A stretch of DNA of 64,000 bases from the sequence record ON528725, one strand, 5' to 3'. A model generated the notes under the pieces. It was given only the letters and a program-made list of their open reading frames with translations. It ran no database searches and was not told the DNA's origin. The DNA comes from Shigella phage ESh15. Made by a program: the position numbers and the translations under genes. Shown in pieces: positions 1,134-52,764 of the stretch (within the stretch, counting starts at the first letter, position 1; every line of letters begins with the position of its first letter).

Positions 1134-1175
1134 GTTTACCTCAATACAATTTATTATATACTCAATTCGTAAAGC

Positions 1176-2572: not shown

Positions 2573-2630
2573 TTTTGCATCTCGCGTTAATTGATGCGAT
2601 GGGTTTTTTTTGCAGGTCTTACTTAAATTA

Positions 2631-4705: not shown

Positions 4706-4746
4706 GTTGAAGTCCTCATTGGTAAGTAGATGTATTGTACACTATT

Positions 4747-4890
4747 CTAGTTAAAGCATTCATACTTTGCCTGTAGACCAATCATAATCCATCCAATTAC
4801 AAGTGTTGGAATCATTACTGGAACCGTTAAGCTCCAGTAGATAGTCATGACAAGCATCAATAGTAAAAGTCCTATTGTTATTGCTTTCAT
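4747..4890 (-). CDS. small hydrophobic membrane peptide (47 aa), below ORF-track cutoff
   Basis: ATG overlaps stop of SIS gene (ATGA); translation MKAITIGLLLLMLVMTIYWSLTVPVMIPTLVIGWIMIGLQAKYECFN; coordinates approximate. Confidence 0.35.
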   Translation of the reverse strand: MKAITIGLLLLMLVMTIYWSLTVPVMIPTLVIGWIMIGLQAKYECFN

Positions 4891-38239: not shown

Positions 38240-38412
38240 TTAGTTTCTCTTAAGGTTGGGGCCATTCCGTGGCACATGTTAGGTCCTTCGACTCGCTATG
38301 TAAACCCATTACCGCACTTGGGCTCGACCTTATTACAGGTTGGAAAAGGTACATCACTCAGAGGACTCGACGTTCGTGAGGAGAGGTTGCGTTTCCCTTT
38401 ATTAGGCAAGAA

Positions 38413-38742
38413 TTATACTCTAGGCTTTTGAGCTTGTTTGGTATTGGATTCCCACGCTGCTTTAGTAATTTTGTTAGCGGCATAGCCAAAGGCATTAGAT
38501 AGAACACCTTTAGAGTTGAATACATCCAATCCAATAAGTACACCGGCTGCGTTAAATTTAGGAGCAAAGTATGCATTAGTTTTAGAAAGAGCTTTTTTCA
38601 ATTCAGGGTCTTGAACCAAGCCATCAAAAACGCCTTTACCATTTACTTTATATGTTACTTTAGGATTTTTACCTTCTTCGATAGCAGCTTTCTGTTCCGC
38701 AGATAATGTAACTTCAGTGATAAATTCTTGATACGTTTTCAT
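38413..38742 (-). CDS. internal protein with capsid-targeting sequence
   Basis: N-terminus MKTYQEFITE matches the T4 internal-protein targeting sequence. Confidence 0.7.
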   Translation of the reverse strand: MKTYQEFITEVTLSAEQKAAIEEGKNPKVTYKVNGKGVFDGLVQDPELKKALSKTNAYFAPKFNAAGVLIGLDVFNSKGVLSNAFGYAANKITKAAWESNTKQAQKPRV

Positions 38743-38783
38743 ATGTTTCCTTTAAATGTAAATAGGCCTAAGTATAGGCCTTA

Positions 38784-39362
38784 TTAATTACCACGGGCCG
38801 CATTAGCGACGGCGTAAGCGTACTGAACATTAGCGTCTTTAAACGTACCTTTAGATGTATCTATTTCTGCCTTAAAGCCACCTTTAGCCATAACATCGGC
38901 AAATTCTTTACGGAAAGCCATTGCATCAAGACCTTTCCATGATGATTTATGCTTGGCAAATTCAAGACCAGCGTAGTTGACAGCTTTAGCTAATTTATTA
39001 TCAATAACCCATTTACCGGCTTTAGGCACAAACTTCGGGCCTTTTTGTTTAGAGAACAGTTTTAAATTCCAGCGACGAAGGTCACTGTCGGCTTTAACAA
39101 AAGCTGCGTCTAAGTTACTAGCAACAACATCTTCAATATGAGCAAATTTAAGTCCGTCAACTTCAATATTTAGATCGTTACGCCAGCGTAGTCCTTCCCA
39201 AGCGAAGGCTTTAAAATCAGAAGCCTTTGTAGCTAAGTACCGTTCAATAGGAGCTGTTTTAGGGTCAAAGCCGTTTCCGCCACGATAATTCCACTCGTCC
39301 TTATTAATGCCTTGAGCTTTTCCTGCAAAGGCCTCGGCGATAAATTCTTTATATGTTTTCAT
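38784..39362 (-). CDS. internal protein with capsid-targeting sequence
   Basis: N-terminus MKTYKEFIAE. Confidence 0.7.
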   Translation of the reverse strand: MKTYKEFIAEAFAGKAQGINKDEWNYRGGNGFDPKTAPIERYLATKASDFKAFAWEGLRWRNDLNIEVDGLKFAHIEDVVASNLDAAFVKADSDLRRWNLKLFSKQKGPKFVPKAGKWVIDNKLAKAVNYAGLEFAKHKSSWKGLDAMAFRKEFADVMAKGGFKAEIDTSKGTFKDANVQYAYAVANAARGN

Positions 39363-39388
39363 TTTTGTTCCTATTCTTTTAATTTATG

Positions 39389-39703
39389 TTATTCTTTAGG
39401 GAAGTTTTTAGAGTATGCGTCATAAAGTTTATTACCGATGCGACGGAAGACTTTAGCTGCAAAACGGTTTTCAGGGTTTTTAATCATGATTTGCATCATG
39501 TAAGTTCCTGCATCCGAAAGAGCTTCTTCATAGTACCCGTTAATTTCTTTAAGAGTCCTACGTTTACCACCAGGACCATCAACAGTAATTTTCCATTTAC
39601 CTGTAGAAGTGCGGCTCGGTGGCTCAACTTGTTCAATCCAAATATAACCACCTTCAACGCGTTGGTTGGCGGATTCTGCAATAAATTCTTTATACGTTTT
39701 CAT
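39389..39703 (-). CDS. internal protein with capsid-targeting sequence
   Basis: N-terminus MKTYKEFIAE. Confidence 0.7.
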   Translation of the reverse strand: MKTYKEFIAESANQRVEGGYIWIEQVEPPSRTSTGKWKITVDGPGGKRRTLKEINGYYEEALSDAGTYMMQIMIKNPENRFAAKVFRRIGNKLYDAYSKNFPKE

Positions 39704-39766
39704 TTTTGTTTCCTTGTTTGTTTTGATAGAGTAATTATACCATATTAATACTTAAGCGTAAACAAT

Positions 39767-40027
39767 TTAAGCTTTACCGCCAGAAATAATTCCGAAGTTG
39801 TTAAAATCGTATCCAATATCGTCAACATCTACTTTAGGACTTGCTACAACATAAGCAATTTCACTACGTTTTGCATAGGTGTTGATTTCTTTACCATCGC
39901 CACCTAAGAAAGAATACCCATTACGTTTTAATGAGCCAAAGTCTTCCTCATCACCAATGAAAGCTTTAACTTTAAATTTTGGGTCTTTGGCATCTGCTTC
40001 AGTGATAAATTCTTGATACATTTTCAT
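39767..40027 (-). CDS. internal protein with capsid-targeting sequence
   Basis: N-terminus MKMYQEFITE. Confidence 0.65.
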   Translation of the reverse strand: MKMYQEFITEADAKDPKFKVKAFIGDEEDFGSLKRNGYSFLGGDGKEINTYAKRSEIAYVVASPKVDVDDIGYDFNNFGIISGGKA

Positions 40028-40033
40028 TTTTCC

Positions 40034-40447
40034 TTAGTAAATTGATTTACCATAGTATTTGTACCAAGTCGGACGTTGAGCAATTTTTTCATCTAAGCGT
40101 GCTTGACTTATCGCAATGGACGCTTCGGACGGGACATAATTATTACGAAATTCGGCAGGGATGTCGGAAATATCCTGGACAGTCGTGTCCTTGATTTTGA
40201 AACCACGTTTCAAACATTCAGCGATTAGCTCGATTTGGCGTAAACGTAAAAATTCGAGTTTGTCGTAAAAGAATGTTACGTGACCCTTGCCTAAGATAAA
40301 TGTTGGAGAGATTTTAAAATCCTTTACACGTTTACCGTTTTGAACATGTTTACGGACTGCACCAAATACGCGTGGTAATTCACGATACTCAGCCATAAGA
40401 TGTTGGTCGGTCAGTTCAGAAACAAGTGTTAAATTGATACGAGTCAT
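40034..40447 (-). CDS. denV: endonuclease V (pyrimidine dimer DNA glycosylase)
   Basis: 137 aa from [34 protein letters not shown], matches T4 DenV. Confidence 0.92.
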
Positions 40448-40450
40448 AAT

Positions 40451-40504
40451 TTCCTCCAAGTAGTTGATGAATGTATAGTATCAAAACCCTTGGAGGAAGT
40501 AAAC
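40451..40504 (-). promoter_or_regulatory. promoter enclosed by 10-bp SD/anti-SD inverted repeat upstream of denV
   Basis: minus-strand GTTTAC-TTCCTCCAAG ... CTTGGAGGAA-ATT-ATG. Confidence 0.5.
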
Positions 40505-40505
40505 A

Positions 40506-40787
40506 CTATTTTTCTGAAGCGCCTGAAATATATTTTTCAAGACGTTGTTTCATCAGCGAGCCGTTCTTAGCGATTTCTTCCGGTTTATCGCACATACGCA
40601 ACAACGCTTCAAGCTTAACGATATCACTGGTGCGCTCAAATTTGCGAGTATCTATCTTACTGGCAAGTTCAGAAATACGTGCTAATAGACTTTCAGCTTC
40701 GACCAAAGCTGCACCTAGCTTAGTTGCAAATGTGTCAGTAGCTTCGTTAAGAATAGATTCTGATAAAAATTCACTATATGTTTTCAT
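40506..40787 (-). CDS. internal protein with capsid-targeting sequence
   Basis: N-terminus [10 protein letters not shown] from internal Met; ATGA overlap with lysozyme stop. Confidence 0.65.
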
Positions 40788-41272
40788 ATATACGCTTTCC
40801 AAGTTCCTGTTTTAAATGTTGAGATTACGCGTTTCGCGCGATTAGGTGTCTGACGATACCATTTAGATTGGGCTAGATTTACTGCCGCTTCGTCCCAACG
40901 TTTCTGTTGAAGCATACGAAGAGAATTAGTAAAACCGGCGACGCCTGCTACACCCATTTGGAAGACCATATTGACTAATGCACATCGACGAACTGCGTCT
41001 AAAGAATCATATACCGGTTTAAGTTTAGCATTACCCAAGATTCCGCGAACGGCTTTATCAACATCTTCATTAAATAGCTTTTCAGCCTCATCAAGGGTAA
41101 TTGTACCGTTGCATTTACGACCGATCATTCTGTCAAGTTCAGTTTTAGCTACGGCTAAAGACGGGTTCTTTGTTACCAAATGGCCTATGCCAATAGTCCA
41201 AAAGCCTTCGGTGTCTTTGTATAAAGTCAGTCTAAGACCTTCGTCATTACGAAGCATTTCAAATATATTCAT
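40784..41272 (-). CDS. e: lysozyme (endolysin)
   Basis: [33 protein letters not shown]4 lysozyme catalytic E11/D20/T26 context. Confidence 0.95.
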
Positions 41273-41273
41273 A

Positions 41274-41299
41274 ATACCTCCCACGTTTATAGGAGGTAT
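41274..41299 (-). promoter_or_regulatory. RBS-sequestering hairpin upstream of lysozyme with late-promoter-like loop
   Basis: minus-strand AUACCUCC-UAUAAACGUG-GGAGGUAU then ATG; loop carries TATAAA. Confidence 0.55.
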
Positions 41300-41306
41300 T
41301 TATTAC

Positions 41307-41765
41307 TTATAGGAGGGTAGTGAGCACCTTATATAATGATTTGCCCATCACATATTCCCATTGAGAAGGTTTAATTAAAGCGAATGCATCAAATTCAGGA
41401 ATTTGTCGTCCGTCTGGGAATGTATGATAGGAATTACAAACACTGTTTCTGAATTGCTCGTGCTCTACAGGGATGGTATATAGGAACAGATGAATATTCT
41501 TATTGTCTGAGTAATGATGTTCACCTAGGTCTTTCAGGAAGGCAGGGTCATATTGTGTAAACCCAGTTTCTTCTTCGCATTCACGAATAGCGGCTTCGAT
41601 AGGAGATTCGCCGGGTTCGACACGGCCTTTAGGAATATCCCACCGATGAGCTAAAGAACCTTTAGGACGAGAACCAGTTACACGCCCCATGAATAACTCT
41701 TTATCTTTTGTCATGAAGATAATACCGGCTGATAGTTCTTTCACTTTATTTTTCTTACTCATCAT
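41307..41765 (-). CDS. nudE: Nudix hydrolase
   Basis: 152 aa; Nudix box GRVEPGESPIEAAIRECEEETG. Confidence 0.85.
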   Translation of the reverse strand: MMSKKNKVKELSAGIIFMTKDKELFMGRVTGSRPKGSLAHRWDIPKGRVEPGESPIEAAIRECEEETGFTQYDPAFLKDLGEHHYSDNKNIHLFLYTIPVEHEQFRNSVCNSYHTFPDGRQIPEFDAFALIKPSQWEYVMGKSLYKVLTTLL

Positions 41766-42006
41766 CTCGGTCCCATGATTTGGCCATTAATTCGGACATA
41801 AATTCTTCAATGCGCGTTTCTTTAGATGGACTTTCACTATTAGAGACCGCAAGTTTGTAATCTGCAATAGGACTGAACAAATCAAGGTCCATATTAAGAT
41901 CGTCTTTGATTTTTTCTTCTGACACATCTTTATCATATGTGTACAGATAACTATCACATGATTCTGATTTAATGTAAATTGCTATACTCATCTCAAATTC
42001 CTGCAT
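41755..42006 (-). CDS. hypothetical acidic protein
   Basis: 83 aa ORF. Confidence 0.4.
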   Translation of the reverse strand: MQEFEMSIAIYIKSESCDSYLYTYDKDVSEEKIKDDLNMDLDLFSPIADYKLAVSNSESPSKETRIEEFMSELMAKSWDRDDE

Positions 42007-42479
42007 TCGGTAATAAAACGTTCAACTTCATTATTCTTGGCCTTTATCTTGTCTTTACGTTCCTGTAAACTACTTTTAACAAGATTAATAATGATGCCTA
42101 TAGTACCTCCACCAATAATACCACCAATAATACTTACGATAGTAGATGCTAATAAGATAGCGATAATATCTGGTATGGCAAAGGCGCTTACTTTAGTACT
42201 AAAAAACCATACCGATGGTACAAATATAATCCATCCTGTTATCCATTGGCACTTATTGAAAAACTTTTCAAGCTCAGCTTGAGTTGTTCGTATTACTTCA
42301 TCGATAGGTTGATATCCATTAATGTATCTGTTCACAATAATACCTGCTGGCTGGTCGATTTTAAATTCTTGGCAAATACGTTTCACTAAGTAGGATGGAC
42401 ATCCTGTCCAATCCACTGAATAGTACGAAATACCTTCGTTGCCGTCGTCAATATTAGACCAATATGTTTTGTTAATCAT
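41988..42479 (-). CDS. membrane-anchored hypothetical protein
   Basis: 163 aa; C-terminal hydrophobic Gly/Ile-rich segments. Confidence 0.45.
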   Translation of the reverse strand: MINKTYWSNIDDGNEGISYYSVDWTGCPSYLVKRICQEFKIDQPAGIIVNRYINGYQPIDEVIRTTQAELEKFFNKCQWITGWIIFVPSVWFFSTKVSAFAIPDIIAILLASTIVSIIGGIIGGGTIGIIINLVKSSLQERKDKIKAKNNEVERFITECRNLR

Positions 42480-43165
42480 TACCAGCCTTCCATAGGGAAT
42501 TCCAGATAAACTTGAGCATTGACACGAATTTCATTAGTAATCTTTTTAACTCGGTCTGTATTACGAGATACACGTCCGAACCAACGCCATCCGTTACTAA
42601 TTGCACGAGAACCAGTGTGCCATGTTTGCCAATCAAACTGAAGAAGAGTACGGTCTGGAGCTTCCCATTTCTCTAGTTCACCTTTTTCAATTTTTTCGAG
42701 GACTTCTTTGTGCCACTGGCGATAGATAAGTTCGCCATCAGGAATCTGACTGAACTCTGCAGTTCCTGTTGCAAAATGAGTAGGACACACGTCAGCGTTA
42801 ACAAGACCAAGAATATGTTCAGAATGGTAACGAGGGTTGTCATAGTCAGGTTGTCCTGCAGTAATAAAGTGTTGACCAACCGGAATATCCGGGCGTGGTA
42901 CATCGTCATGGTGATAACCTGGTATAGCAGGGTACCAACCAGGCATCAGCATATGAACCCGAGAATCAAATACAACCTGGTCGGTGTTCCAATCATCTGG
43001 CAAGTTCATGATGAAGCTGCGAGTAATAGGACCGCCGTTATTATAAGCAAATTCTAAACTACAGTTGAAGAACATAGGCTCGTTCTTGATTTTATCATTA
43101 GAAATACCGCCGGCAAAACCACCTACTGCACGAGCTTGACTATTAAACACTTTAGAACTATTCAT
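42479..43165 (-). CDS. hypothetical protein
   Basis: 228 aa ORF, His/Asp-rich patches; no firm family. Confidence 0.45.
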   Translation of the reverse strand: MNSSKVFNSQARAVGGFAGGISNDKIKNEPMFFNCSLEFAYNNGGPITRSFIMNLPDDWNTDQVVFDSRVHMLMPGWYPAIPGYHHDDVPRPDIPVGQHFITAGQPDYDNPRYHSEHILGLVNADVCPTHFATGTAEFSQIPDGELIYRQWHKEVLEKIEKGELEKWEAPDRTLLQFDWQTWHTGSRAISNGWRWFGRVSRNTDRVKKITNEIRVNAQVYLEFPMEGW

Positions 43166-43166
43166 A

Positions 43167-43472
43167 TTATTTTCCTCGACATTCTTTAATGAAATTTTCT
43201 AGATTGGTAGATTCAATAGCTTTTTTACGAGCTTCTGCATGTTCTTCTTCAGACAATTTACATTTATAATTAACCCAGACGTTATGGTCAAAACTAGTCG
43301 TGGCATATAATAACAAAGCCCCGACGAATAATAAAAACGGTGATAAGAATACAAAACCAGGAACACCATCCATATCGTAAGCCTTTTGTAATACTGCAAC
43401 AGAAAGAGTTGCGTAAAAAGGTGATGCAAATATTGTTAAAAGACCAATTCGGTTGGTTTCTGTTAATTTCAT
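43167..43472 (-). CDS. membrane protein
   Basis: 101 aa, two hydrophobic helices, GAGGAGAA RBS. Confidence 0.5.
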   Translation of the reverse strand: MKLTETNRIGLLTIFASPFYATLSVAVLQKAYDMDGVPGFVFLSPFLLFVGALLLYATTSFDHNVWVNYKCKLSEEEHAEARKKAIESTNLENFIKECRGK

Positions 43473-43542
43473 AATATTCTCCTCATGTTTTAATAGGACT
43501 ACTATAACATAGTCCTATAATTGTGTAAACAGTTTTGTGAAG

Positions 43543-44499
43543 TTATTTGAAAGGTTTTACCATATGGAAATTTTGTTTGAAACGTTTTACATAATCGTCA
43601 TGTCCTAAGCTTTGGTACATACTTACAACTTTGCTGTAGTTTTCCCAAGCGTATTCACGGAACCAGCCTGACGTGATTGAAGTACAGACCTTTTCAAGAG
43701 CCATCATAAAACTATCACGTGGATGGATTTTAAAGTCATTAGGAATCTGAGAACGTTCTAATGCTAGTACACATGATTCTTCGTATACACCGGCCAATTT
43801 GACCATTTCTGGTAATGATTCGAACTTCTCGCGTGAGGTCATGACTTCAGAACCATCTTTCATGTAAAACGTATAAGCAGGGCGGTCTGTTAGTGCAATG
43901 GCTTCGTGAATAGTATCATGATCGTATGTGTAGATGTCATCTTTAAAGAATGCGCTTTTAGAAGTGTCAAGAACCGGGTGAGCATAGTTCAATGTTTCTT
44001 TCTGGCGTTTAAGCATAATTTCAGTAAGTTCATCGTTCAGTGTAACACCTTTACCACGAAGATACTGAATATGGTTCATAGTCTTTAAAAAGAATGGATT
44101 ATTTTTCTTGAAACGATGAGACATCTTAATTGCAAGACACATCTCAGGAGTTGCCCAGTAAAACCCGTTCAAACGATCTTTAGTCAAATTTTTCTTGGCG
44201 TATTTTAAAAGGTCATAAGAAGACGTGAAATCTTCAGGAGTGAGTTCACCAACTAATTCACGGACATTAGTGATTGCCGGAACAATATATGCTTCAAAAT
44301 GAGTTTCGCGTCCATTATGGAAGCATTTGAAAACTTGGACATCAGGGTTATCTTGGTGAACATATACACCCATCATTTGATTTTTGAATGCATTCCAAGA
44401 ACCTTGGTCCGCAATAAAGTCCCAATCACTATTTTTGATAGCGCTAGAATCAATAAGGCCGTGATAGTGAAGTGCACGAGAACCAATAACTAACATCAT
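43543..44499 (-). CDS. hypothetical protein
   Basis: 318 aa ORF. Confidence 0.5.
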   Translation of the reverse strand: MMLVIGSRALHYHGLIDSSAIKNSDWDFIADQGSWNAFKNQMMGVYVHQDNPDVQVFKCFHNGRETHFEAYIVPAITNVRELVGELTPEDFTSSYDLLKYAKKNLTKDRLNGFYWATPEMCLAIKMSHRFKKNNPFFLKTMNHIQYLRGKGVTLNDELTEIMLKRQKETLNYAHPVLDTSKSAFFKDDIYTYDHDTIHEAIALTDRPAYTFYMKDGSEVMTSREKFESLPEMVKLAGVYEESCVLALERSQIPNDFKIHPRDSFMMALEKVCTSITSGWFREYAWENYSKVVSMYQSLGHDDYVKRFKQNFHMVKPFK

Positions 44500-44524
44500 A
44501 ATAATTTCCTCAAATTTAGATTAC

Positions 44525-44776
44525 TTAAATTTCACGACATGCGATATTATATTCATCCCAGAGGTCATCATGTGAAGCCTCTACCAATGGAACGATTGTA
44601 CCATTTATGTCTTCATTATAAGGACAAATTGTACAGTGCGCATCTTCGAATCGGATGCCTTTGTGTTCAGATTTTTTATAACGCATATCGAATATCTTTG
44701 CAAACTTTTCACGAGTAATAGTTTTAGCAACTACTTCGGTTCCGATACTTTCGTAATAAATCATTGTGGACTCCAT
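44525..44776 (-). CDS. hypothetical protein
   Basis: 83 aa ORF. Confidence 0.4.
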   Translation of the reverse strand: MESTMIYYESIGTEVVAKTITREKFAKIFDMRYKKSEHKGIRFEDAHCTICPYNEDINGTIVPLVEASHDDLWDEYNIACREI

Positions 44777-44827
44777 TTAATTTGATAGGACTACTATAAC
44801 ATAGCCCTATCTTGTTGTAAACTGTTT

Positions 44828-45025
44828 TTAGCAAGAATAACTAGATGATACCCAGCCTTGAACAGTAATACTATTATTTGATAACGAGATCGCGTCCTGG
44901 AGATTCAGACCTGCGTTATCTTCAATCCATAATGTAACTTCTTCGCGTTCTTCTGTTGCAATTTGGAACAGGTTTTCCAGAGCAGCTACTGCCGTACGTA
45001 CAGCACAATCTAATTCACGAGACAT
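44828..45025 (-). CDS. small protein, paralog family with C-terminal WVSSS..C
   Basis: 65 aa ending GWVSSSYSC. Confidence 0.45.
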   Translation of the reverse strand: MSRELDCAVRTAVAALENLFQIATEEREEVTLWIEDNAGLNLQDAISLSNNSITVQGWVSSSYSC

Positions 45026-45034
45026 ATTGTTTCC

Positions 45035-45307
45035 TTAGCAAGTGTGAGAAGATGCAACCCAACCGCCATCTTCAAGGCTCAGGTTGTAGTCGTATTGGTA
45101 AACGTCAGCCCATTCAGCATAGCCGTTTTTTGTACAACGTTCAAGATCGGCTTTAAGATGTCCTGGTGAATGATAGGTTCCACCCATACCATAAGCTGGA
45201 TACAAGTCAAATGTTGTGTTTTGTTTATTGGCAATTTCTTTGGCTGCCTCAATAGCTGCATAGATTTTTGCTACGGCTTCAGCCAGTTCGGTTTGTTCTT
45301 TAGACAT
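45035..45307 (-). CDS. small protein, paralog family with C-terminal WVSSS..C
   Basis: 90 aa ending GGWVASSHTC. Confidence 0.45.
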   Translation of the reverse strand: MSKEQTELAEAVAKIYAAIEAAKEIANKQNTTFDLYPAYGMGGTYHSPGHLKADLERCTKNGYAEWADVYQYDYNLSLEDGGWVASSHTC

Positions 45308-45316
45308 AATGATTCC

Positions 45317-45622
45317 TTAGCACAATGCAGAAGACGAAACCCAAGCACCTTCAGTAATAACGTAACCATTACCTTCACGCTTAACGTCGCCACCATTATT
45401 TTCAATTTCATTTTTCATCCACTGGGATACGATTTCACCCTTAGGATAATAAGTACGACCGCTACCATAATCACCTACAGAAAATGATACAGCATATTGG
45501 TCTGCGATCTTTGTTGCTTCTTCTTCGATACGTTCAGCTTGATTCAGAAGTTTATAAATTGCATCTGAAGCGGATTTGGCATCATTAAACTCTGGCACTT
45601 TAATTTCAATAATCTTACTCAT
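45317..45622 (-). CDS. small protein, paralog family with C-terminal WVSSS..C
   Basis: 101 aa ending GAWVSSSALC. Confidence 0.45.
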   Translation of the reverse strand: MSKIIEIKVPEFNDAKSASDAIYKLLNQAERIEEEATKIADQYAVSFSVGDYGSGRTYYPKGEIVSQWMKNEIENNGGDVKREGNGYVITEGAWVSSSALC

Positions 45623-45720
45623 TTTCTACATTCCTTAATAAAGTTTTCGATTGTTTCATTTTCACGTCTAGCTAGGAGTTCATTATAACTAATCATTTGA
45701 GAAGCGTAAACAGCATAAAT

Positions 45721-46143
45721 TCAGTTAAGGCTTTTGCATCTTATCTCCTTAACGAATTCCATGGCTTCATTGTATTCATACTTTTTAACAGCTTCATCAT
45801 ACTGAGCTTGGGCTTTTGCGCACTGAACTTTCCATTCTCTTAATCGGGCTCTGTGATGACGGCCTTGGTGCCAATATCCTGCCCAATTAATAGGCATTAA
45901 TAAAAACGGTACAATAAGTGGTGCGACGAACATTAATGAAAATGCTGCATCAGACGATATAACTTCACTAGAATCTAAAACAGCTCCTATAATCATAAAG
46001 ATTAAAAATGCTAAAGCTAAAATAGGACCAAACAACACCTCATTAGGAATTAATTTACGTTTGTATTCGTATGCCCAGGGCTTAATTGGCATGTACAGGG
46101 TTGGCTTTGACATATTCTCTACATTCCATAATAAATTGCTCAA
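45721..46143 (-). CDS. membrane protein
   Basis: 140 aa ORF; true start probably an internal Met (about 46092-46113) given overlap with upstream gene. Confidence 0.4.
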   Translation of the reverse strand: MSNLLWNVENMSKPTLYMPIKPWAYEYKRKLIPNEVLFGPILALAFLIFMIIGAVLDSSEVISSDAAFSLMFVAPLIVPFLLMPINWAGYWHQGRHHRARLREWKVQCAKAQAQYDEAVKKYEYNEAMEFVKEIRCKSLN

Positions 46144-46705
46144 GGATTAAATTGTTAGTGAAATTAGGACTAACAACCATAGTTTCATAAAGCGCATCAA
46201 TAGCACTTAAAGCATCAACTCTTTTAAGCAAAGGCTTGCCTTCATACATAGTTTCAGAATCTACGATTAGCGTAAAGTAATATTTTTTATTATCGACTAG
46301 AACTTCAGTATCGATATAAAACATGTTAGACCTTAAAAGCTTATCTCTAAAACCATAATAATCTTCAGAGCGTTCGCTGATATATTCCCATTCAGTGTTT
46401 AAACAACAAACAGACCATGTAGGAGCAACGAAATCAGTGAATCTAATATCATGGTCTGCAACTAGTTTAGCAATAGCTCCGATATCATGAATCATAATAC
46501 CTGGGGCTAATAAAGATTTTCTGCTATGGCTAGCCGTTTTCTCAGTAGTCTCATAAGAAGACGACCAGTACCATTTACGTCCGGTTGCAACATATCGTAA
46601 TGAATCAACTAAAGACGTAGGTGGATTTACCTTATCTCGGAACTCTTCGAACATTGAGTCAATATCATTATTTTGGTTTCGCATGTTAACTCCTTTATTA
46701 TCCAA
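46082..46705 (-). CDS. hypothetical protein
   Basis: 207 aa ORF. Confidence 0.5.
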   Translation of the reverse strand: MDNKGVNMRNQNNDIDSMFEEFRDKVNPPTSLVDSLRYVATGRKWYWSSSYETTEKTASHSRKSLLAPGIMIHDIGAIAKLVADHDIRFTDFVAPTWSVCCLNTEWEYISERSEDYYGFRDKLLRSNMFYIDTEVLVDNKKYYFTLIVDSETMYEGKPLLKRVDALSAIDALYETMVVSPNFTNNLILEQFIMECREYVKANPVHAN

Positions 46706-46735
46706 AAAAGGAGGACCGGAGTCCTCCGTATTATT

Positions 46736-47329
46736 TTATTTCAAAGAGTTAATATATTCTTGTACATCAGCAGAAGTTGTTTCGACACCAGCTGGAGTGC
46801 CATTGAATGTTTCAACACGAGTCAGAGTGTCTTCGATATCAACCTTAGTCAGTGCAGCAATTTCGATTACATCATCGGCCGTAGAGATACCAAGGGCATT
46901 GGCTGCTCGAGTTTCACGAATGTATTCGAGTTTGATTGCCAGATTCTGACGAGCATCATCAAGTTCAACCACCTTACGAGCAATTTCAATTCGCATAGCG
47001 GCGTACCCGTCAGCTTTTGTATTAAGTTGTTCGGCTGTTCGACGATACAGAAGTCCAAGCTTAGCATGCATGGTAACATCTTGTCCTTCAGCCAGGAGCT
47101 TACGAATTTCACGTTCTTTAGAAGCGGCTTGCTTGTTCTTTTCATTAACAAGTTCGCGAATACGTTTTTCTTCATTAATAGATTTAACAGAAGCCGTTTT
47201 TAGTTCTTTGATTTGGGTAATCAACTTATCTGCGGCTGCGTTATACTGTTCTTCGACAGTCAGATTTTTAGCCATAGCAGTACCCAGTTTAGTGCGGATG
47301 AATTCAACAAGTTTCTTCAGTGTGTTCAT
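46736..47329 (-). CDS. coiled-coil protein (PspA/IM30-like pattern, tentative)
   Basis: about 197 aa from internal Met; long heptad-rich helices. Confidence 0.35.
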
Positions 47330-47370
47330 ATTATTACCTTTCAATTGGTGGTTTATTATCCAACGAGAGC

Positions 47371-47400
47371 ATTATACTCTGCTCTCAAGAGTTTGTAAAT
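47371..47400 (-). promoter_or_regulatory. sigma70-type promoter with palindrome-flanked -10 (repeat copy 2)
   Basis: minus-strand ATTTAC-N18-TATAAT; GAGAGC/GCTCTC inverted repeat around the -10. Confidence 0.45.
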
Positions 47401-47627
47401 TATTTTTTAATCAAATTGACATAAAACTTAGCGTCTTCAGGGTGCATGCCTTCGCAGTATTCTTCAACCATGAACTTCTTAACAGCTTCATAAGGACCAC
47501 TCAGATTAAGCTCAGTTGTCCAAAACTTGGAATCTTGGGCTGAATCGATATGAACTTCAGGGTGTCGGTTGCGAATAACTTCTTCGGTGTATTCATAATC
47601 AACGACATCAATACTAACTTTAGCCAT
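47400..47627 (-). CDS. hypothetical protein
   Basis: 75 aa ORF. Confidence 0.45.
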   Translation of the reverse strand: MAKVSIDVVDYEYTEEVIRNRHPEVHIDSAQDSKFWTTELNLSGPYEAVKKFMVEEYCEGMHPEDAKFYVNLIKK

Positions 47628-47906
47628 TTTGTTTTCCTCTTGATTTGATGTGATTACTATAACATAAACTTACTTAGATGTAAATTATTTCAACGTCACC
47701 TTTAGCTGCTTTATAACCTTCAGCCCAAGATATAACAGAGTTTTTATCTGAGGATTCAAATTCAGGCATTGGACTTTCACCAATATTCACACAGTATGTT
47801 TCTTCATTTTCATCGAACCAAATAATTAAAGTAGTCATTTTGTTTACTCCACTGTAGTTGATAAGTCTATAGTATCACCATCCTTGGTGCTTGTACATCA
47901 TTATTT

Positions 47907-48212
47907 TTAATTTTTCCAACTTAACAACTTGTAGTGTCCTTCATTCATACGTGGTTTATCCCAAGAAATACTAATATATGATTCGCTGTCAATAGAAGTC
48001 GCCGGGTTTTTCTCTACCGTAAGACCTTCACTTTCTAACCATTCAATAGTGTTTGCGCATAAATCTGAAGAACACCTCATCGGAAACTGGCAAGATTTTT
48101 CACCTTTAGCTGCAGTGTTATACATCTTTTCTAAAATACGCTTTTGCACGTTTTTAAAAATAGTTTCAGCAGATTCTTCAGATTTTTTATTCAGTTCAGT
48201 GTAAAGACTCAT
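47907..48212 (-). CDS. hypothetical protein
   Basis: 101 aa ORF. Confidence 0.45.
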   Translation of the reverse strand: MSLYTELNKKSEESAETIFKNVQKRILEKMYNTAAKGEKSCQFPMRCSSDLCANTIEWLESEGLTVEKNPATSIDSESYISISWDKPRMNEGHYKLLSWKN

Positions 48213-48290
48213 AATATTCTCCTCATGTTTTGATAGGTCTATAATAACACATCTATGGAAGAAGTAAACAACTTTTTCAGTAAGTTATAG

Positions 48291-48316
48291 ACCCCCTAAA
48301 GGGGACCGAAGTCCCC
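48291..48316 (-). terminator. UUCG-tetraloop hairpin (terminator/processing element), repeat family member
   Basis: minus-strand GGGGAC-UUCG-GUCCCC-UUUAGGGGG directly after the stop of the 48322..48942 gene. Confidence 0.45.
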
Positions 48317-48321
48317 ATTCT

Positions 48322-48942
48322 TTACTTACGAGTTTTTGCATACTGAGCAGCGTCAGCAGCCAAACGACCTGCCTGACGAAGTTTTTCTTTAATCTCATCA
48401 TGAAGTGGTTGAGTATACTTCAAACCTTCGATAGTCAAATAAAGACGATAAAGGTCTGGGGTATCAAGGTTGTTGATATGTTGGCCATTACGAAGAATAT
48501 TAAATTCACGAACGAGTGAAGATGTATCGGATTCAATATCACGAACAAGCGAAGATAGTTGTTTATATTTTTTTTCCAGGCTAGAAGTATCAAACTTAAG
48601 AGCAGGAGCTTTAGGAGTTGCTTTTACTTCCGGCTTAGGCTCAGGTTTTGCTTTAGGGGTCGTAGGTTTAGGAATGGTAGGAGCAGGTTTTACTTTAGGC
48701 GAACCAGATTTAGCAGAAACACCACCACTAACAATATCTTTGAATGCTTTAGAAGCTCTGTAATATTCTTTTTGGCTGGAAGTGTCGATACCGTACATGG
48801 CTTGAACGTTTTTGAAAAACTCTGTACTAGTTTTTGTACCAGAAATAGCATCGTAAGCAGCTTGCCATTTCTCTTTTGTCATACGTACACCGGCTTCGGT
48901 GATTACTTCCGTTTCGGCTAAAAATTCATTAAAAGTATACAT
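48322..48942 (-). CDS. internal-protein-like with capsid-targeting sequence
   Basis: N-terminus MYTFNEFLAE; Pro/Lys-rich linker. Confidence 0.55.
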   Translation of the reverse strand: MYTFNEFLAETEVITEAGVRMTKEKWQAAYDAISGTKTSTEFFKNVQAMYGIDTSSQKEYYRASKAFKDIVSGGVSAKSGSPKVKPAPTIPKPTTPKAKPEPKPEVKATPKAPALKFDTSSLEKKYKQLSSLVRDIESDTSSLVREFNILRNGQHINNLDTPDLYRLYLTIEGLKYTQPLHDEIKEKLRQAGRLAADAAQYAKTRK

Positions 48943-48977
48943 TGATGGTCCTTAGAAAGTAGGTTTATTGTTTACTA

Positions 48978-48985
48978 TATTTATA
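48978..48985 (-). promoter_or_regulatory. T4 late promoter TATAAATA
   Basis: exact TATAAATA on minus strand about 35 nt upstream of the 48942 start. Confidence 0.6.
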
Positions 48986-48990
48986 CAAAA

Positions 48991-49014
48991 AAGCCCCAAC
49001 CTTTCGGAAGGGGC
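48991..49014 (-). terminator. rho-independent terminator
   Basis: minus-strand GCCCCUUCC-GAAA-GGUUGGGGC followed by UUUUUU. Confidence 0.6.
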
Positions 49015-49020
49015 TATATA

Positions 49021-49318
49021 CCTTGTCGGGGTTTCCACCTACTAAGGCAAGTGTTTGTACGAAACGCCGGGACTCGAACCCGGTTATTAAGCAGTTGACG
49101 CTACTCAATATTTTTAAAAGGCCATATCTCGACCATATCCGAACGTTCCGTCAAAAACGCTACTCGGCTTACGGCAAAGATATTTCCTCGAATCGATAAT
49201 TCGGTGCGCCGTTTCTGCTGTGATGTAAGGGGATATTAACGAATCATAAAGATTTATTAAGACCAGTCCTTACTCAGGGAACATCAGTCCGACGTCTTGC
49301 CGGTAGCGACCCGGCTTC
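49021..49318 (-). ncRNA. non-coding region with tRNA-like elements (degenerate tRNA remnant and/or small stable RNA)
   Basis: no ORF; minus-strand CCGGG-TTCGAGT-CCCGG T-arm with an acceptor-like CGGAACG/CGTTTCG pairing but no canonical cloverleaf or CCA; several other stem-loops. Confidence 0.35.
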
Positions 49319-49663
49319 TTATTTTGGCATATCATCAATTTGTTCTCGACGCCGACGCCATAGATTAATCGCTTCATTGGCACATTCTGCGTTTGGTATA
49401 TGACGGCAATAATATAATGATTCGCGTTTCTGGAACCGATGTTGCAATGGAATTTCGTTTAAAAGGTCTTTACGGTCAAAGTATTCAAAACTAGTTAACC
49501 CAGAACGGTTTTTAAGAAACTTCCAATGTCCGAATTCATTTTGAAAATAAACGTAATCAGCGTGTTGATATAACGAATTAATCAACCGGTCGGAAATAAC
49601 TGTATCCTGTTCGTTAAAATAAAACGTTAAATCATGAACTACCAAATAAATATTGCCTTTCAT
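49319..49663 (-). CDS. hypothetical protein
   Basis: 114 aa from internal Met with GAGGAAAAT RBS; begins 18 nt after tRNA-Arg. Confidence 0.45.
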   Translation of the reverse strand: MKGNIYLVVHDLTFYFNEQDTVISDRLINSLYQHADYVYFQNEFGHWKFLKNRSGLTSFEYFDRKDLLNEIPLQHRFQKRESLYYCRHIPNAECANEAINLWRRRREQIDDMPK

Positions 49664-49681
49664 ATTTTCCTCACTTGAAGT

Positions 49682-49758
<77 letters not shown>

Positions 49759-49761
49759 GAT

Positions 49762-49836
49762 TGGTGACCCTGGCTGGTTTCGATCCAGCTACCTATCAGT
49801 TATGAGCTGACAGCTCTCCCATTGAGCTACAGGGCC
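49762..49836 (-). tRNA. tRNA-Met or tRNA-Ile2 (anticodon CAU)
   Basis: hand-folded cloverleaf: acceptor GGCCCTG/CAGGGTC, D-arm GCTC-AATGGGA-GAGC, anticodon loop CTCATAA, T-arm GCTGG-ATCGAAA-CCAGC, encoded CCA. Confidence 0.8.
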
Positions 49837-49915
49837 TAAATAACTTTCTATTATGAAAGGCACTTTATAGCACCTTTGGTAATAGAGGGTATGAATTAAT
49901 AATAACACATAATTC

Positions 49916-50431
49916 TTAAAGCAAATCAATCATTTTAACAGTCGGCAAAACAATTTCTTCTTCAATATAAGCGAATTCAACACGTTCAACTACACGCAAG
50001 AAATCGTAATCATAGTATTCAGAAGCATAGCCAAGAATATCAATAAGTCCTTGAGATATCTCATCGCCTTTCACAAAGAACAGGTCGAATACGCGGGCTT
50101 CGTCTTCTTCAGATTTATCACCAAGGTCTACTTCGATACCAAAGACCTTTTTAATAAATTCCGGTTGGAGTTGGTCTGAGAACAGTCCTTCAACCAAGTA
50201 TTCATAGATTAAAAGCGAGCAATCACTGAATGGTGTATTGCCACAGTAACGTTCAGCTTTAGTGCTGGAATGTCGGCTCTTAAATTTCTTCAAGAGGTAT
50301 TTGAACTGTTGGAGCTCATGCTCTCCCACTTCAAACAATGTTTTGGTTTTATAGTTGTCACCATCATTTTCATAGGTAGTGACATCAATTACGTAGCCCT
50401 TAGGAATTGTACTGCCTAAACAAATATTCAT
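49916..50431 (-). CDS. hypothetical protein
   Basis: 171 aa ORF. Confidence 0.5.
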   Translation of the reverse strand: MNICLGSTIPKGYVIDVTTYENDGDNYKTKTLFEVGEHELQQFKYLLKKFKSRHSSTKAERYCGNTPFSDCSLLIYEYLVEGLFSDQLQPEFIKKVFGIEVDLGDKSEEDEARVFDLFFVKGDEISQGLIDILGYASEYYDYDFLRVVERVEFAYIEEEIVLPTVKMIDLL

Positions 50432-50435
50432 TTAC

Positions 50436-50726
50436 TCACCGTACCATATTAATGTAATTATATTCAATGCAACGTAATTTCAAAGGATTCTTGAAAATAT
50501 CATATTCAAGAGGGCCTTTTTCTGTTTCAATAAAGAAATCAAAGTTCACACTATTAAATTTGCGGTCTTCCCAAAGTAATTTAACTTGCGAAGATGAACG
50601 GTCGATATAAACCTTTTCAACCTCAAAGTTAGTCAGAATACCGTAGTCATCGACTAGTGCTTTAGCTGCACGTTGATCGCTTTCATATCCATTCTCAACG
50701 GATTTTACCTTAGCATAAAGAATCAT
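50436..50726 (-). CDS. hypothetical protein
   Basis: 96 aa ORF. Confidence 0.45.
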   Translation of the reverse strand: MILYAKVKSVENGYESDQRAAKALVDDYGILTNFEVEKVYIDRSSSQVKLLWEDRKFNSVNFDFFIETEKGPLEYDIFKNPLKLRCIEYNYINMVR

Positions 50727-51103
50727 GAGTGTTCCACCATTTCAAAGGTATGAGCATCAACAATATGATACCAGTCAAAATTTTCTTCTGCTTTTTTATA
50801 AATTTCGCGAAGAGCCTCAACAGTTTTTCCTGTAGCAACAAGGTCGTTAATACCGCCAAGAGGATAACAGTCGTAACCGGCAAACAGAAGGAAATTAATA
50901 GTTTCTGTAGGGGCCGGATGCAGTGTACCATTGTCATCGACTACTTCAAAGAACATATAACCAGGCGATTTAGATTTAATCCAAGCCCATGCTTGAGCTG
51001 CTGAATCAAATGGTCTGCGTATCAAACGACAATCAGGGTCTTTAGAAGGATTTGCTTCAAAATCCGCATATACATGATATTTCATTTTACTCACCTTTTG
51101 CAA
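50723..51103 (-). CDS. hypothetical protein
   Basis: 126 aa ORF. Confidence 0.45.
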   Translation of the reverse strand: MQKVSKMKYHVYADFEANPSKDPDCRLIRRPFDSAAQAWAWIKSKSPGYMFFEVVDDNGTLHPAPTETINFLLFAGYDCYPLGGINDLVATGKTVEALREIYKKAEENFDWYHIVDAHTFEMVEHS

Positions 51104-51272
51104 TTTTATCCATAACGATAGCGATTAAGCCGATTAGAAATGCTACTACCAATGAGATAGAATTTTCTGTTGTTGTCAGTAGTCCACAAATGAATCCTAC
51201 AAACATCGAAAAACTAAAAGCCATTGAAGCAATTACTACAGCAACATTACGAATCAGTTCAGCGCGTTTCAT
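51087..51272 (-). CDS. small membrane protein
   Basis: 61 aa, hydrophobic. Confidence 0.4.
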   Translation of the reverse strand: MKRAELIRNVAVVIASMAFSFSMFVGFICGLLTTTENSISLVVAFLIGLIAIVMDKIAKGE

Positions 51273-51341
51273 TTTATTCTCCTCAGTAGTTGATAGGGTA
51301 ATAGTATCACTACCCTATCTAAAAGTAAACGGTTTTATAAA

Positions 51342-51650
51342 CTATTTTATTCCGCGTGATGCAATCGTATTCTGCCGTTTAACGCCAGTTTGTTTAAAGT
51401 TATGATTGTCGAGTTGATCGGTACGAGCAACTCCGAATGATGATTTAATCTTAGCTTTAGATCCTTTAGTTATAGAAATAAACATCTCGGGAGCCCCTTT
51501 CTTAAAGTCCGAAGCAATTACTTCAACACCGTTCTTAGCAAGTGACCTCAGAATTGCTTCCGCATACTCATCATCAAGACCCGCTTGAGTATGAATAACG
51601 AATGTCTTTGGTGCAGCTGCTTCACAGATAAATTCTTTAAATGTTTTCAT
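51342..51650 (-). CDS. internal protein with capsid-targeting sequence
   Basis: N-terminus MKTFKEFICE. Confidence 0.65.
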   Translation of the reverse strand: MKTFKEFICEAAAPKTFVIHTQAGLDDEYAEAILRSLAKNGVEVIASDFKKGAPEMFISITKGSKAKIKSSFGVARTDQLDNHNFKQTGVKRQNTIASRGIK

Positions 51651-51713
51651 TTTATTTTCCTAATTAATTTTGATAGGACTACTATAACATAGTCCTATCA
51701 GCATGTAAACTAC

Positions 51714-52001
51714 TTACAGAAGAGTTTTTGCAATAATTTTAAGCTGAGCTACAGAAATATGCTTAGCTTTAAACAGTGCAGTCTCTTCAGCTGGAGAGAT
51801 AACAATAGTAGCGCCATCTTTCTTAGCAGACCATCCATCACCTAAGTAAACAGTACCTTTTACTTCTTCGCCGTCAACCAGACTAATCATTGGTTTACCC
51901 TCACGTCCTTTATTTGCTTTAATAACTTCGGAAGTAAGGGTTGCTTCAGTCAGAGTAGAAACGTTAGCAACAGGTGATATAAATTCTTTATAGGTTTTCA
52001 T
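51714..52001 (-). CDS. internal protein with capsid-targeting sequence
   Basis: N-terminus MKTYKEFISP. Confidence 0.6.
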   Translation of the reverse strand: MKTYKEFISPVANVSTLTEATLTSEVIKANKGREGKPMISLVDGEEVKGTVYLGDGWSAKKDGATIVISPAEETALFKAKHISVAQLKIIAKTLL

Positions 52002-52078
52002 TTTATTTCCTTGAGGTCGTTTATTTGATAGGATGATAGTATCACACCGTCATCCTTATGTAAACTGTTTTGTGAAAA

Positions 52079-52764
<686 letters not shown>

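What the first reader, a model, noticed from the sequence alone, without database searches (positions are those of the whole stretch)
38413..52001. Expanded family of eight capsid-targeted internal-protein genes
Eight genes (38413..38742, 38784..39362, 39389..39703, 39767..40027, 40506..40787, 48322..48942, 51342..51650, 51714..52001) share the N-terminal sequence MKTY(K/Q)EFI(A/T)E, the T4 capsid-targeting sequence cleaved by the prohead protease. Their bodies are unrelated to each other. T4 has three such proteins, one of which inhibits a type IV restriction enzyme that targets glucosyl-hmC DNA. The enlarged and diverse set here is a plausible arsenal of injected anti-defence effectors.
Basis: partly seen in the sequence, partly recalled or inferred. 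Interest (0 to 1): 0.6.

Follow-up and report, generated by a model that had tools for sequence, protein, structure and literature searches.

The report
Eight T4-type internal (injected) protein genes
An RB69-like T-even phage carries eight small genes with the known T4 capsid-targeting leader, a well-documented, cassette-like set of proteins packed into the head and injected to block host restriction enzymes, so the finding is correct but ordinary for this phage group.

Summary
Eight minus-strand ORFs at the stated coordinates start with a T4-type capsid-targeting sequence (CTS). A leader weight matrix scores them 24.7-37.2, the next ORF in the 64 kb scores 5.3, and the shuffle maximum is 18.3. 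With leaders removed, their bodies are unrelated by BLASTP and hhalign.

Only 3 of 8 match the quoted motif exactly. One gene (51714-52001) has a 19-residue leader, as T4 IPI does.

The window is a Mosigvirus (RB69-like). Two genes are orthologs of characterised T4 proteins: IPI (Pfam IPI_T4, E 1e-50; residues 20-95 match PDB 2JUB) and IPIII (94% identity). A third is Ip10, named in 1994. Three more are annotated internal head proteins in some records. Only two (38413-38742 and 48322-48942) are 'hypothetical' everywhere.

Eight is not an unusual expansion. At the same loci RB69 has 7, S143_2 has 8, phi25-307 has 7, and T4 has 3.

The idea of a diverse, CTS-tagged, injected anti-restriction arsenal is already published (Repoila 1994; Rao & Black 2010). 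Silas 2025 showed that all three T4 Ips inhibit distinct GmrSD enzymes.

Verdict: correct, already known, low interest.

The parts
38413..38742 (-). ipA: 109-aa CTS protein (leader MKTYQEFITE|V), basic body. Annotated 'hypothetical' in every public record; phrog_3966.
   Evidence: Its only distant homolog, P0146 (34% identity in the body), keeps the leader MKTYQQFITE.
38764..38781 (-). Terminator-like hairpin AGGCCTATACTTAGGCCT between ipB and ipA.
38784..39362 (-). ipB: ortholog of T4 internal protein III (192 aa, leader MKTYKEFIAE|A).
   Evidence: 94% body identity to T4 IPIII. phrog_5341 'internal virion protein', E 2e-117.
39389..39703 (-). ipC: Ip10 family (104 aa, leader MKTYKEFIAE|S).
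   Evidence: Its 90%-identity cluster contains 'Ip10 [Enterobacteria phage Pol]' CAA84455.1. It is 72% identical to Ip10 of Shigella phage SP18.
39734..39762 (-). T4-early-type promoter (TTTACG, 17 nt, TATAAT, with TG) directly 5' of ipC.
39767..40027 (-). ipD: 86-aa CTS protein (leader MKMYQEFITE|A) with a mildly acidic body (pI about 5). Its ATG lies 6 nt after the denV stop codon.
   Evidence: Annotated 'internal head protein' in RB69 and SHSML-52-1. The first Met is lost in p000v, mar005P1 and phi25-307.
40034..40447 (-). denV (endonuclease V). Context marker for the classical ipII/ipIII locus.
40506..40787 (-). ipE: 93-aa CTS protein (leader [10 protein letters not shown]|S, with a second site SILNE|A). 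Its ATG overlaps the stop codon of lysozyme gene e (ATGA).
   Evidence: phrog_3499 'internal head protein', E 1e-46. Corresponds to RB69ORF127c. Sequence context.
40784..41272 (-). Gene e (T4-type lysozyme). Context marker.
48322..48942 (-). ipF: 206-aa CTS protein at a third locus beside the tRNA genes. The leader MYTFNEFLAE is a drifted form; most homologs start MKTYNEFLNE. A second site, ..ITE16|A, has an invariant Glu. The protein has two helical domains joined by a Pro/Lys-rich disordered linker. 'Hypothetical' in every record.
   Evidence: (alignment A3). No informative fold match.
48978..48985 (-). Exact T4 late-promoter box TATAAATA, starting 43 nt upstream of the ipF ATG.
51342..51650 (-). 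ipG: 102-aa CTS protein (leader MKTFKEFICE|A) in the ipI locus.
   Evidence: phrog_2667 'internal head protein', E 6e-40. Shares an exact 25-nt run across the ATG with T4 ipI although the bodies are unrelated.
51681..51709 (-). T4-early-type promoter with an embedded hairpin, 5' of ipG.
51714..52001 (-). ipH: ortholog of T4/RB69 internal protein I (95 aa). The 19-aa leader is MKTYKEFISPVANVSTLTE|A.
   Evidence: Pfam PF11634 IPI_T4, E 1.3e-50, residues 20-95. PDB 2JUB chain residues 1-76 align to residues 20-95, E 6e-42. Body is 100% identical to RB69 IPI and 94% to T4 IPI.
52036..52064 (-). T4-early-type promoter with an embedded hairpin, 5' of ipH. T4 ipI has the same architecture.
52079..52534 (-). 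Gene 57B. Context marker for the classical ipI locus.
417..5522 (-). RB69-type cytosine-arabinosylation cluster (thymidylate-synthase-like, Peptidase_U32-like, NTP transferase, SIS isomerase) next to DNA polymerase. It indicates what kind of modified DNA the Ips accompany.
   Evidence: The RB69 gp45-55 pathway is described in PMC13326640.

Best explanation
These are eight internal-protein (ip) genes of a Mosigvirus.

Proposed mechanism:
1. Each protein is made with an N-terminal capsid-targeting sequence. This docks it onto the gp22-based scaffolding core while the prohead assembles.
2. The prohead protease gp21 cuts after the (I/L)-x-E motif. The cut falls at residue 10 in seven of the proteins, with possible further sites at 15-16 in ipE and ipF, and at residue 19 in the IPI ortholog. 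This frees the mature protein inside the head.
3. DNA is packaged around the proteins, and they are ejected into the next host together with the DNA.
4. There they act as pre-made, stoichiometric inhibitors of first-response defences. The main targets are GmrSD-family type IV restriction enzymes, which recognise the phage's sugar-modified cytosines.

The set is a cassette array. Unrelated bodies share a portable module of ribosome-binding site plus leader, and recombination within that module adds, removes or swaps cassettes between phages.

What is shown here: leader conservation, cleavage motifs, orthology of two genes to characterised inhibitors, cassette breakpoints at the leader, and presence of the protease/scaffold module in the lineage.

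What is inferred: packaging, cleavage, injection, and the targets of the six uncharacterised bodies.
For: Leader: eight leaders at ORF starts with a large gap to background. Residues 4, 7, 8 and 10 are conserved; these are the positions reported to govern targeting (4, 7) and processing (8, 10) in T4 IPIII (PMC9026906). Constraint acts at the protein level: Thr3 uses four codons and Ile8 three. The leader is also retained in distant family members, in ipF homologs at 49-69% identity and in the ipA homolog at 34%.

Orthology: ipH is IPI (body 100% identical to RB69 IPI), which is reported to protect RB69 from GmrSD (PMC6024577). ipB is IPIII (94%), which is needed to infect ECOR17 and inhibits its GmrS1/GmrSD2 system (PMC9391042; PMC12373910). 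ipC is Ip10.

Location and regulation: the loci are the same as in T4, and the promoter-plus-hairpin architecture matches T4 ipI, ipII and ipIII.

Cassette behaviour: presence and absence differ among 7 phages, with 11 body families in total. In RB69 and mar005P1 the ipB indel boundary lies in the leader. The 5'UTR/leader is exchanged between unrelated bodies.

Machinery: RB69 encodes gp20, 67, 68, the gp21 protease, gp22, gp23 and gp24.

Context: the window carries the arabinosylation cluster.
Against: There is no direct evidence in the sequence that any of the six uncharacterised proteins is packaged, cleaved or injected, or what it binds.

ipF's leader deviates at four positions. ipD and ipE are not basic, unlike the classical Ips. 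Several relatives show leader erosion: RB69 ipA has E10 changed to A, RB69 ipE starts MKTYMNFYQN, and ipD has lost Met1 in three phages. Some copies may therefore be decaying.

An exact late-promoter box was found only for ipF, so expression timing for the others is not established from sequence.

Gene 21 lies outside the window and was checked only in RB69.
Confidence: 0.85

Rival explanations
1. The proteins are mainly structural or architectural head components. They would help core assembly, DNA condensation or charge neutralisation inside the capsid, with anti-defence activity limited to the IPI and IPIII orthologs.
For: Five of the eight bodies are clearly basic (pI 9.6-9.9), and ipH is weakly basic (pI 8.2). 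T4 IPs bind DNA at low salt, and IPIII-negative and triple-IP-negative mutants show aberrant head assembly (PMC9026906). About 1000 IP molecules are embedded in packaged T4 DNA (PMC3012670).
Against: A structural role does not explain unrelated bodies or rapid cassette turnover between phages that are 96% identical. All three T4 Ips are non-essential, and each now has a specific GmrSD target (PMC12373910). IPIII works from a plasmid without its CTS (PMC9391042). ipD and ipE are not basic.
Confidence: 0.1
2. The shared N-terminus is kept by repeated gene conversion, or because the 5' end is a translation-initiation or mRNA element. On this view it is not a functional protein signal in all eight genes, and some are no longer packaged.
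For: The conserved block extends into the 5'UTR. ipA and T4 ipII share an exact 30-nt run from -22 to +8, and T4 ipII and ipIII share 47 nt. E6 and F7 are invariant even at the codon level. Leader erosion is visible in some relatives.
Against: There is synonymous variation at Thr3 (4 codons) and Ile8 (3 codons), and 26 of 85 pairwise codon differences are synonymous, which points to protein-level selection. The leader persists in homologs whose bodies have diverged to 34-69% identity. The CTS alone is experimentally sufficient to package foreign proteins in T4 (PMC9026906).
Confidence: 0.05

Closest known systems
[quoted passage not shown]
   Same: Same CTS leader, same (I/L)-x-E cleavage motif, same two genomic loci and same promoter/hairpin architecture. 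ipH and ipB are direct orthologs (94% body identity). An IPII ortholog is present in the sister phage phi25-307.
   Different: This phage has no IPII but has six other body families. It also has one CTS gene at a third locus beside the tRNAs. Its DNA is probably arabinosylated, not glucosylated.
RB69 (the Mosigvirus type phage) internal-protein set
   Same: Seven CTS-led genes at the same three loci. ipA, ipC, ipD, ipE, ipG and ipH all have RB69 counterparts at 64-100% identity.
   Different: RB69 lacks IPIII. At the third locus it has a 146-aa gene (ORF149c) that is only partly related to ipF. It also shows leader or body erosion in ipA, ipC and ipE.
Polymorphic ip1-locus proteins of T-even phages (Repoila et al. 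1994; Ip4-Ip13 nomenclature)
   Same: The same phenomenon: unrelated ORFs that share only the CTS and are exchanged as cassettes. ipC clusters with the deposited Ip10 of phage Pol. At least 10 such Ips have been reported (PMC12373910).
   Different: I could not read the 1994 paper, so a one-to-one mapping of the other bodies to Ip numbers was not made.
Anti-CRISPR and other anti-defence hotspots in phage genomes
   Same: Small, unrelated, fast-turnover inhibitor genes clustered at fixed loci. Silas et al. draw this analogy themselves.
   Different: Ips are delivered as pre-made protein with the DNA, through a packaging signal. Acrs are expressed after injection.

Membership tests
T4-type CTS internal proteins (Ip) | N-terminal leader of about 10 residues resembling MKTYQEFIAE, with an aromatic residue at position 4 and Phe at position 7 (the targeting determinants) | tested here: met
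   8 of 8 have Y/F at position 4 and F at position 7. Weight-matrix scores are 24.7-37.2, against 5.3 for the next ORF.
T4-type CTS internal proteins (Ip) | gp21 cleavage motif (I/L)-x-E at the end of the leader | tested here: met
   7 of 8 have I/L at position 8 and E at position 10. ipH has L-T-E at 17-19, exactly as T4 IPI has I-T-E. The solved mature IPI* begins at the residue equivalent to ipH A20.
T4-type CTS internal proteins (Ip) | Location in the hyperplastic ip loci (vs.8/denV/e, and tRNA/57B) | tested here: met
   7 of 8 lie in the two classical loci. ipF is at a third site between e.6/frd.3 and the tRNAs, and RB69 also has a CTS gene at that site.
T4-type CTS internal proteins (Ip) | The phage encodes the gp21 prohead protease and the gp22/67/68 scaffolding core | tested here: inconclusive
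   These genes lie outside the 64-kb window. They are present in RB69, which is the same genus.
T4-type CTS internal proteins (Ip) | Physically present in virions in processed form and ejected with the DNA | not testable with these tools
   Needs virion mass spectrometry or injection assays. I found no Mosigvirus virion proteome in the literature searches.
IPI (Pfam PF11634, nuclease inhibitor from phage T4) | Full-length match to the IPI* domain above the Pfam gathering score | tested here: met
   ipH scores 169.7 bits against a cut-off of 25. Residues 20-95 cover profile positions 1-76 of 76. PDB 2JUB matches at E 6e-42.
IPIII | Full-length sequence orthology to T4 IPIII | tested here: met
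   ipB is 94% identical over 178 aligned body residues, E 2e-125. phrog_5341 is covered over 1-192 of 192.
GmrSD (type IV restriction) inhibitors | Demonstrated inhibition of a GmrSD-family nuclease | not testable with these tools
   This is known for the T4/RB69 orthologs of ipH and ipB. There are no data for ipA or ipC-ipG. No structural similarity to anything informative was found for ipF.

The most novel reading that the evidence does not exclude
Six bodies have no known target (ipA, ipC/Ip10, ipD, ipE, ipG, and the two-domain ipF at a third, undescribed ip locus). They may be injected inhibitors of defences that specifically recognise arabinosylated cytosine DNA. Candidates include ara-specific GmrSD or other type IV nucleases, or DNA glycosylases, as opposed to the glucosyl-hmC-directed enzymes mapped so far. 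If so, the Mosigvirus Ip set would be a ready-made probe panel for discovering that immunity. ipA and ipF would also be newly recognised Ip families.
Probability: 0.3. Interest if true: 0.5.

Novelty: already known. Interest (0 to 1): 0.2.

Why it matters
As a discovery it matters little. CTS-tagged, hypervariable internal proteins of T-even phages have been described since 1994. Their anti-restriction role has been the accepted model since 2007-2010. By 2025 all three T4 proteins had assigned GmrSD targets. Every one of the eight protein sequences is already in public databases.

Three modest practical points remain:
1. Two families (ipA, phrog_3966; ipF, phrog_2280) are annotated 'hypothetical' or 'unknown function' everywhere. 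They carry a conserved CTS and could be re-annotated as putative internal proteins.
2. There is a third ip locus beside the tRNA genes.
3. Mosigviruses have arabinosylated DNA, so their Ip repertoire is a sensible place to look for inhibitors of defences against that modification.

Tried and rejected
- Structure of ipF. The AlphaFold2 model is moderate (pLDDT 72, with a confident C-terminal three-helix domain). Foldseek against the PDB gave no hit at E <= 0.001. The viral library returned only uncharacterised relatives from T4-like Yersinia and Serratia phages. No functional clue.
- Structure of ipC/Ip10. The pLDDT was 49 from a 4-sequence alignment, too poor to search with, so the last fold-search job was not spent on it.
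- Pfam on all eight. Only ipH hit a family above threshold. The weak sub-threshold hits (CsgH, AbiJ_NTD3, SIX1_SD) were disregarded.
- Exhaustive phmmer with the ipA body. This gave one close cluster and one real distant homolog (P0146). The remaining hits are multi-stretch matches to very long repetitive proteins, which I treated as spurious.
- PHROG co-membership of ipA+ipC and of ipD+ipG suggested hidden homology. BLASTP and hhalign with leaders removed do not support it, although the profiles are shallow.
- Rfam on 37.5-53 kb found only the two tRNAs, and nothing for the conserved spacer at 38240-38412.
- Repoila 1994, Bair 2007 and Rifat 2008 could not be read. Statements about them rest on how later open-access papers cite them.
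- I considered whether acidic ipD could be a DNA mimic. Its net charge is only about -2, so I rejected this.
- The source record could not be identified in the phage collection: the best hits were about 96% identical. Four exact protein matches point to Shigella phage ESh15.


Full report
**1. Observation**

The eight ORFs exist at the stated coordinates, all on the minus strand. I call them ipA to ipH:
- ipA, 38413-38742
- ipB, 38784-39362
- ipC, 39389-39703
- ipD, 39767-40027
- ipE, 40506-40787
- ipF, 48322-48942
- ipG, 51342-51650
- ipH, 51714-52001

Their first ten residues are [70 protein letters not shown] and MKTYKEFISP. All share M1, Y/F at 4, E6, F7 and I/L at 8, and seven share E10.

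The loose motif occurs eight times in the six-frame translation of the 64 kb, against 0.04 expected, and always at an ORF start. A weight matrix built mainly from leaders of other phages scores the eight at 24.7-37.2. The next ORF scores 5.3 and the maximum over 20 shuffles is 18.3.

**2. Are the bodies unrelated?**

Yes, as far as sequence methods can see. With the leader removed, the best pairwise BLASTP E-value is 0.4. The best hhalign probability between any two window families is 3.3%.

PHROGs lumps ipA with ipC, and ipD with ipG. I could not reproduce any similarity once the leader was taken off. The profiles used are shallow, so very deep homology is not excluded.

**3. What the genome is**

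The region is about 96% identical to Mosigvirus genomes, the RB69-like Tevenvirinae: Shigella phage SSE1, Escherichia phages moskry and p000v, and others. Four of the eight proteins are exact matches to Shigella phage ESh15.

Gene order is the T4 order: vs.8 | ipA ipB ipC ipD | denV | ipE | e | nudE ... e.6 ... | ipF | tRNA-Arg, tRNA-Met | tRNA.2-4 | ipG ipH | 57B | 57A | gene 1. Seven genes therefore lie in the two classical T4 ip loci. ipF lies at a third site next to the tRNAs.

**4. Identity of the individual genes**

- ipH is the ortholog of internal protein I. It matches Pfam PF11634 (IPI_T4) at E 1.3e-50, with residues 20-95 covering the whole 76-residue profile. The same residues align end to end with the solved mature IPI* (PDB 2JUB, E 6e-42). 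Its body is 100% identical to RB69 IPI and 94% to T4 IPI. Its leader is 19 residues...STLTE|A, as in T4 (...STITE|A).
- ipB is the ortholog of IPIII, with 94% body identity.
- ipC belongs to a 90%-identity cluster that contains 'Ip10' of phage Pol, a 1994-era deposit. It is 72% identical to Ip10 of Shigella phage SP18.
- ipD, ipE and ipG are annotated 'internal head protein' in some records.
- ipA and ipF are 'hypothetical' in every record I saw, and their PHROGs are 'unknown function'.

All eight exact sequences are already public.

**5. Is eight an expansion?**

Relative to T4 (three), yes. Relative to its own genus, no. At the same loci I counted CTS-led genes as follows:

| Phage | CTS-led genes |
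|---|---|
| window | 8 |
| S143_2 | 8 |
| phi25-307 | 7 (includes a 93% ortholog of T4 IPII) |
| RB69 | 7 |
| p000v | 6 |
| mar005P1 | 6 |
| T4 | 3 |

These seven phages hold eleven body families between them. The LF82 phages share the ipF + ipG + ipH arrangement. The canonical leader, searched as a DNA pattern, occurs in 69 stretches of IMG/VR, mostly on T4-like contigs of about 170 kb, with up to four copies in one 9-kb locus.

**6. Evidence that the leader is a functional protein signal**

The conserved positions are those reported for T4 IPIII: residues 4 and 7 for targeting, 8 and 10 for processing (PMC9026906). Thr3 is encoded by four different codons and Ile8 by three, so the constraint acts on the protein.

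The leader survives in distant family members. ipF homologs at 49-69% identity mostly begin MKTYNEFLNE, and they also keep an invariant Glu16 in an (I/L)-x-E|A context, a plausible second cleavage site. The only distant homolog of ipA (34% identity) begins MKTYQQFITE.

The protease and scaffold genes (20, 67, 68, 21, 22, 23, 24) are outside the window but present in RB69.

**7. Cassette behaviour**

In RB69 and mar005P1, which lack ipB, the upstream region of ipB is joined through a single leader directly to the body of ipA. One end of the indel therefore lies inside the leader (alignment A2).

The ribosome-binding site plus leader module is shared across unrelated bodies. ipA shares an exact 30-nt run (-22 to +8) with T4 ipII. 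ipG shares an exact 25-nt run (-3 to +22) with T4 ipI, although ipG is not IPI. Leader nucleotide identity between paralogs is 59-96%, against 20-43% in the next 60 nt. This fits recombination within the leader module as the way cassettes are gained, lost and swapped. Later papers attribute that idea to Repoila et al. 1994.

Some relatives show erosion. RB69 ipA has E10 changed to A, RB69 ipE has a degenerate leader, RB69 ipC is truncated, and ipD has lost its first Met in three phages.

**8. Expression signals**

ipC, ipG and ipH each sit directly behind a T4-early-type promoter: (G)TTTAC, 17 nt, then a TATAAT-like box with an extended -10, and a hairpin embedded in the spacer. T4 ipI, ipII and ipIII show the same architecture.

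ipF has an exact late box, TATAAATA, at -43. The ATG of ipE overlaps the stop codon of gene e, and ipD starts 6 nt after denV. I did not establish timing of expression.

**9. Mechanism**

The best explanation is the established T4 pathway. The CTS docks the protein to the scaffolding core. gp21 cleaves after (I/L)-x-E. The mature protein stays in the head with the DNA and is injected with it.

The published T4 evidence is as follows. Each T4 head holds about 360-370 copies of each IP (PMC9026906). T4 Ip1, Ip2 and Ip3 each inhibit a different GmrSD type IV enzyme, with no cross-protection (PMC12373910). IPIII is required on ECOR17 and works in the cytoplasm without its CTS (PMC9391042). RB69 IPI is reported to prevent GmrSD restriction of RB69 (PMC6024577).

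For ipH and ipB the function follows from orthology. For the other six it is inference by analogy.

**10. Context that changes the detail**

The first 5.5 kb of the window, beside the DNA polymerase gene, carries four genes: thymidylate-synthase-like, Peptidase_U32-like, NTP-transferase and SIS-isomerase. This matches the RB69 gp45-55 cytosine-arabinosylation pathway (PMC13326640). RB69 DNA was first described as arabinosyl-hmC (PMC6024577).

GmrSD from CT596 still acts on RB69 DNA.

**11. Comparison with what is known, and novelty**

[quoted passage not shown] The finding is therefore correct but already known. The small increments are that ipA and ipF are unannotated families with a conserved CTS, and that a third ip locus sits beside the tRNAs. 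RB69 carries a partly related 146-aa CTS gene there (hhalign probability 80%).

**12. What led nowhere**

- The ipF model has a flexible leader, a small helical N-domain, a disordered Pro/Lys-rich linker at 74-111, and a confident three-helix C-domain. It has no informative structural neighbour.
- The ipC model was too poor to use.
- Rfam found only the tRNAs.
- The key 1994 and 2007-2008 papers were not available to read.

**13. Verdict**

Novelty: already known. Interest: about 0.2.

Noticed in passing
window 44828-45025, 45035-45307, 45317-45622 (minus strand): Three tandem small ORFs (65, 90 and 101 aa) all end in the same C-terminal motif, G/A-W-V-S/A-S-S-x-x-C...QGWVSSSYSC...GGWVASSHTC...GAWVSSSALC. 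They fall in phrog_4882 and phrog_899, both of unknown function, and have no Pfam family.
   Followed up: partly
window 417-5522 (minus strand): A cluster of thymidylate-synthase-like, Peptidase_U32-like, NTP-transferase and SIS-isomerase genes next to DNA polymerase (5563-8274). It matches the RB69 gp45-55 cytosine-arabinosylation pathway, so this phage's DNA is probably arabinosylated.
   Followed up: partly
window 38240-38412: A noncoding spacer of about 170 nt between ipA and vs.8, richer in GC than its surroundings and conserved in all five Mosigviruses aligned. It contains a GTTTAC-17-TAACAT early-type promoter (38276-38304) that probably drives vs.8. The remaining 100 nt or so is unexplained, and there is no Rfam match.
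   Followed up: partly
L006 (RB69) 18551-18991, versus window 48322-48942: At the third ip locus RB69 carries a different-sized CTS gene, ORF149c (146 aa, leader MKTYAEFLTE). Its body is related to the N-domain and linker of ipF only at the profile level (hhalign probability 80%, E 1e-5). This suggests domain-level remodelling within the locus.
   Followed up: partly
L001, L002, L004 (ipD orthologs); L006 8450-8779, 8848-9120 and 9923-10204: Signs of Ip decay in relatives. ipD has lost its first Met and starts MYQEF... in p000v, mar005P1 and phi25-307. RB69 ipA has E10 changed to A, RB69 ipC is truncated to 90 aa, and the RB69 ipE leader has degenerated to MKTYMNFYQN.
   Followed up: no
window 43543-44499 (minus strand): A 318-aa protein with DUF7277 and DUF7275 domains (E 1e-27 and 5e-79), function unknown, in the hyperplastic e-tRNA region that separates the ip loci.
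   Followed up: no
IMG/VR loci L027, L029, L034, L035, L051 and others: Exact matches to the canonical CTS DNA pattern also occur on short environmental contigs (4-60 kb) from metagenomes, not only on coliphage-like genomes of about 170 kb. I did not check whether these are T4-like fragments.
   Followed up: no
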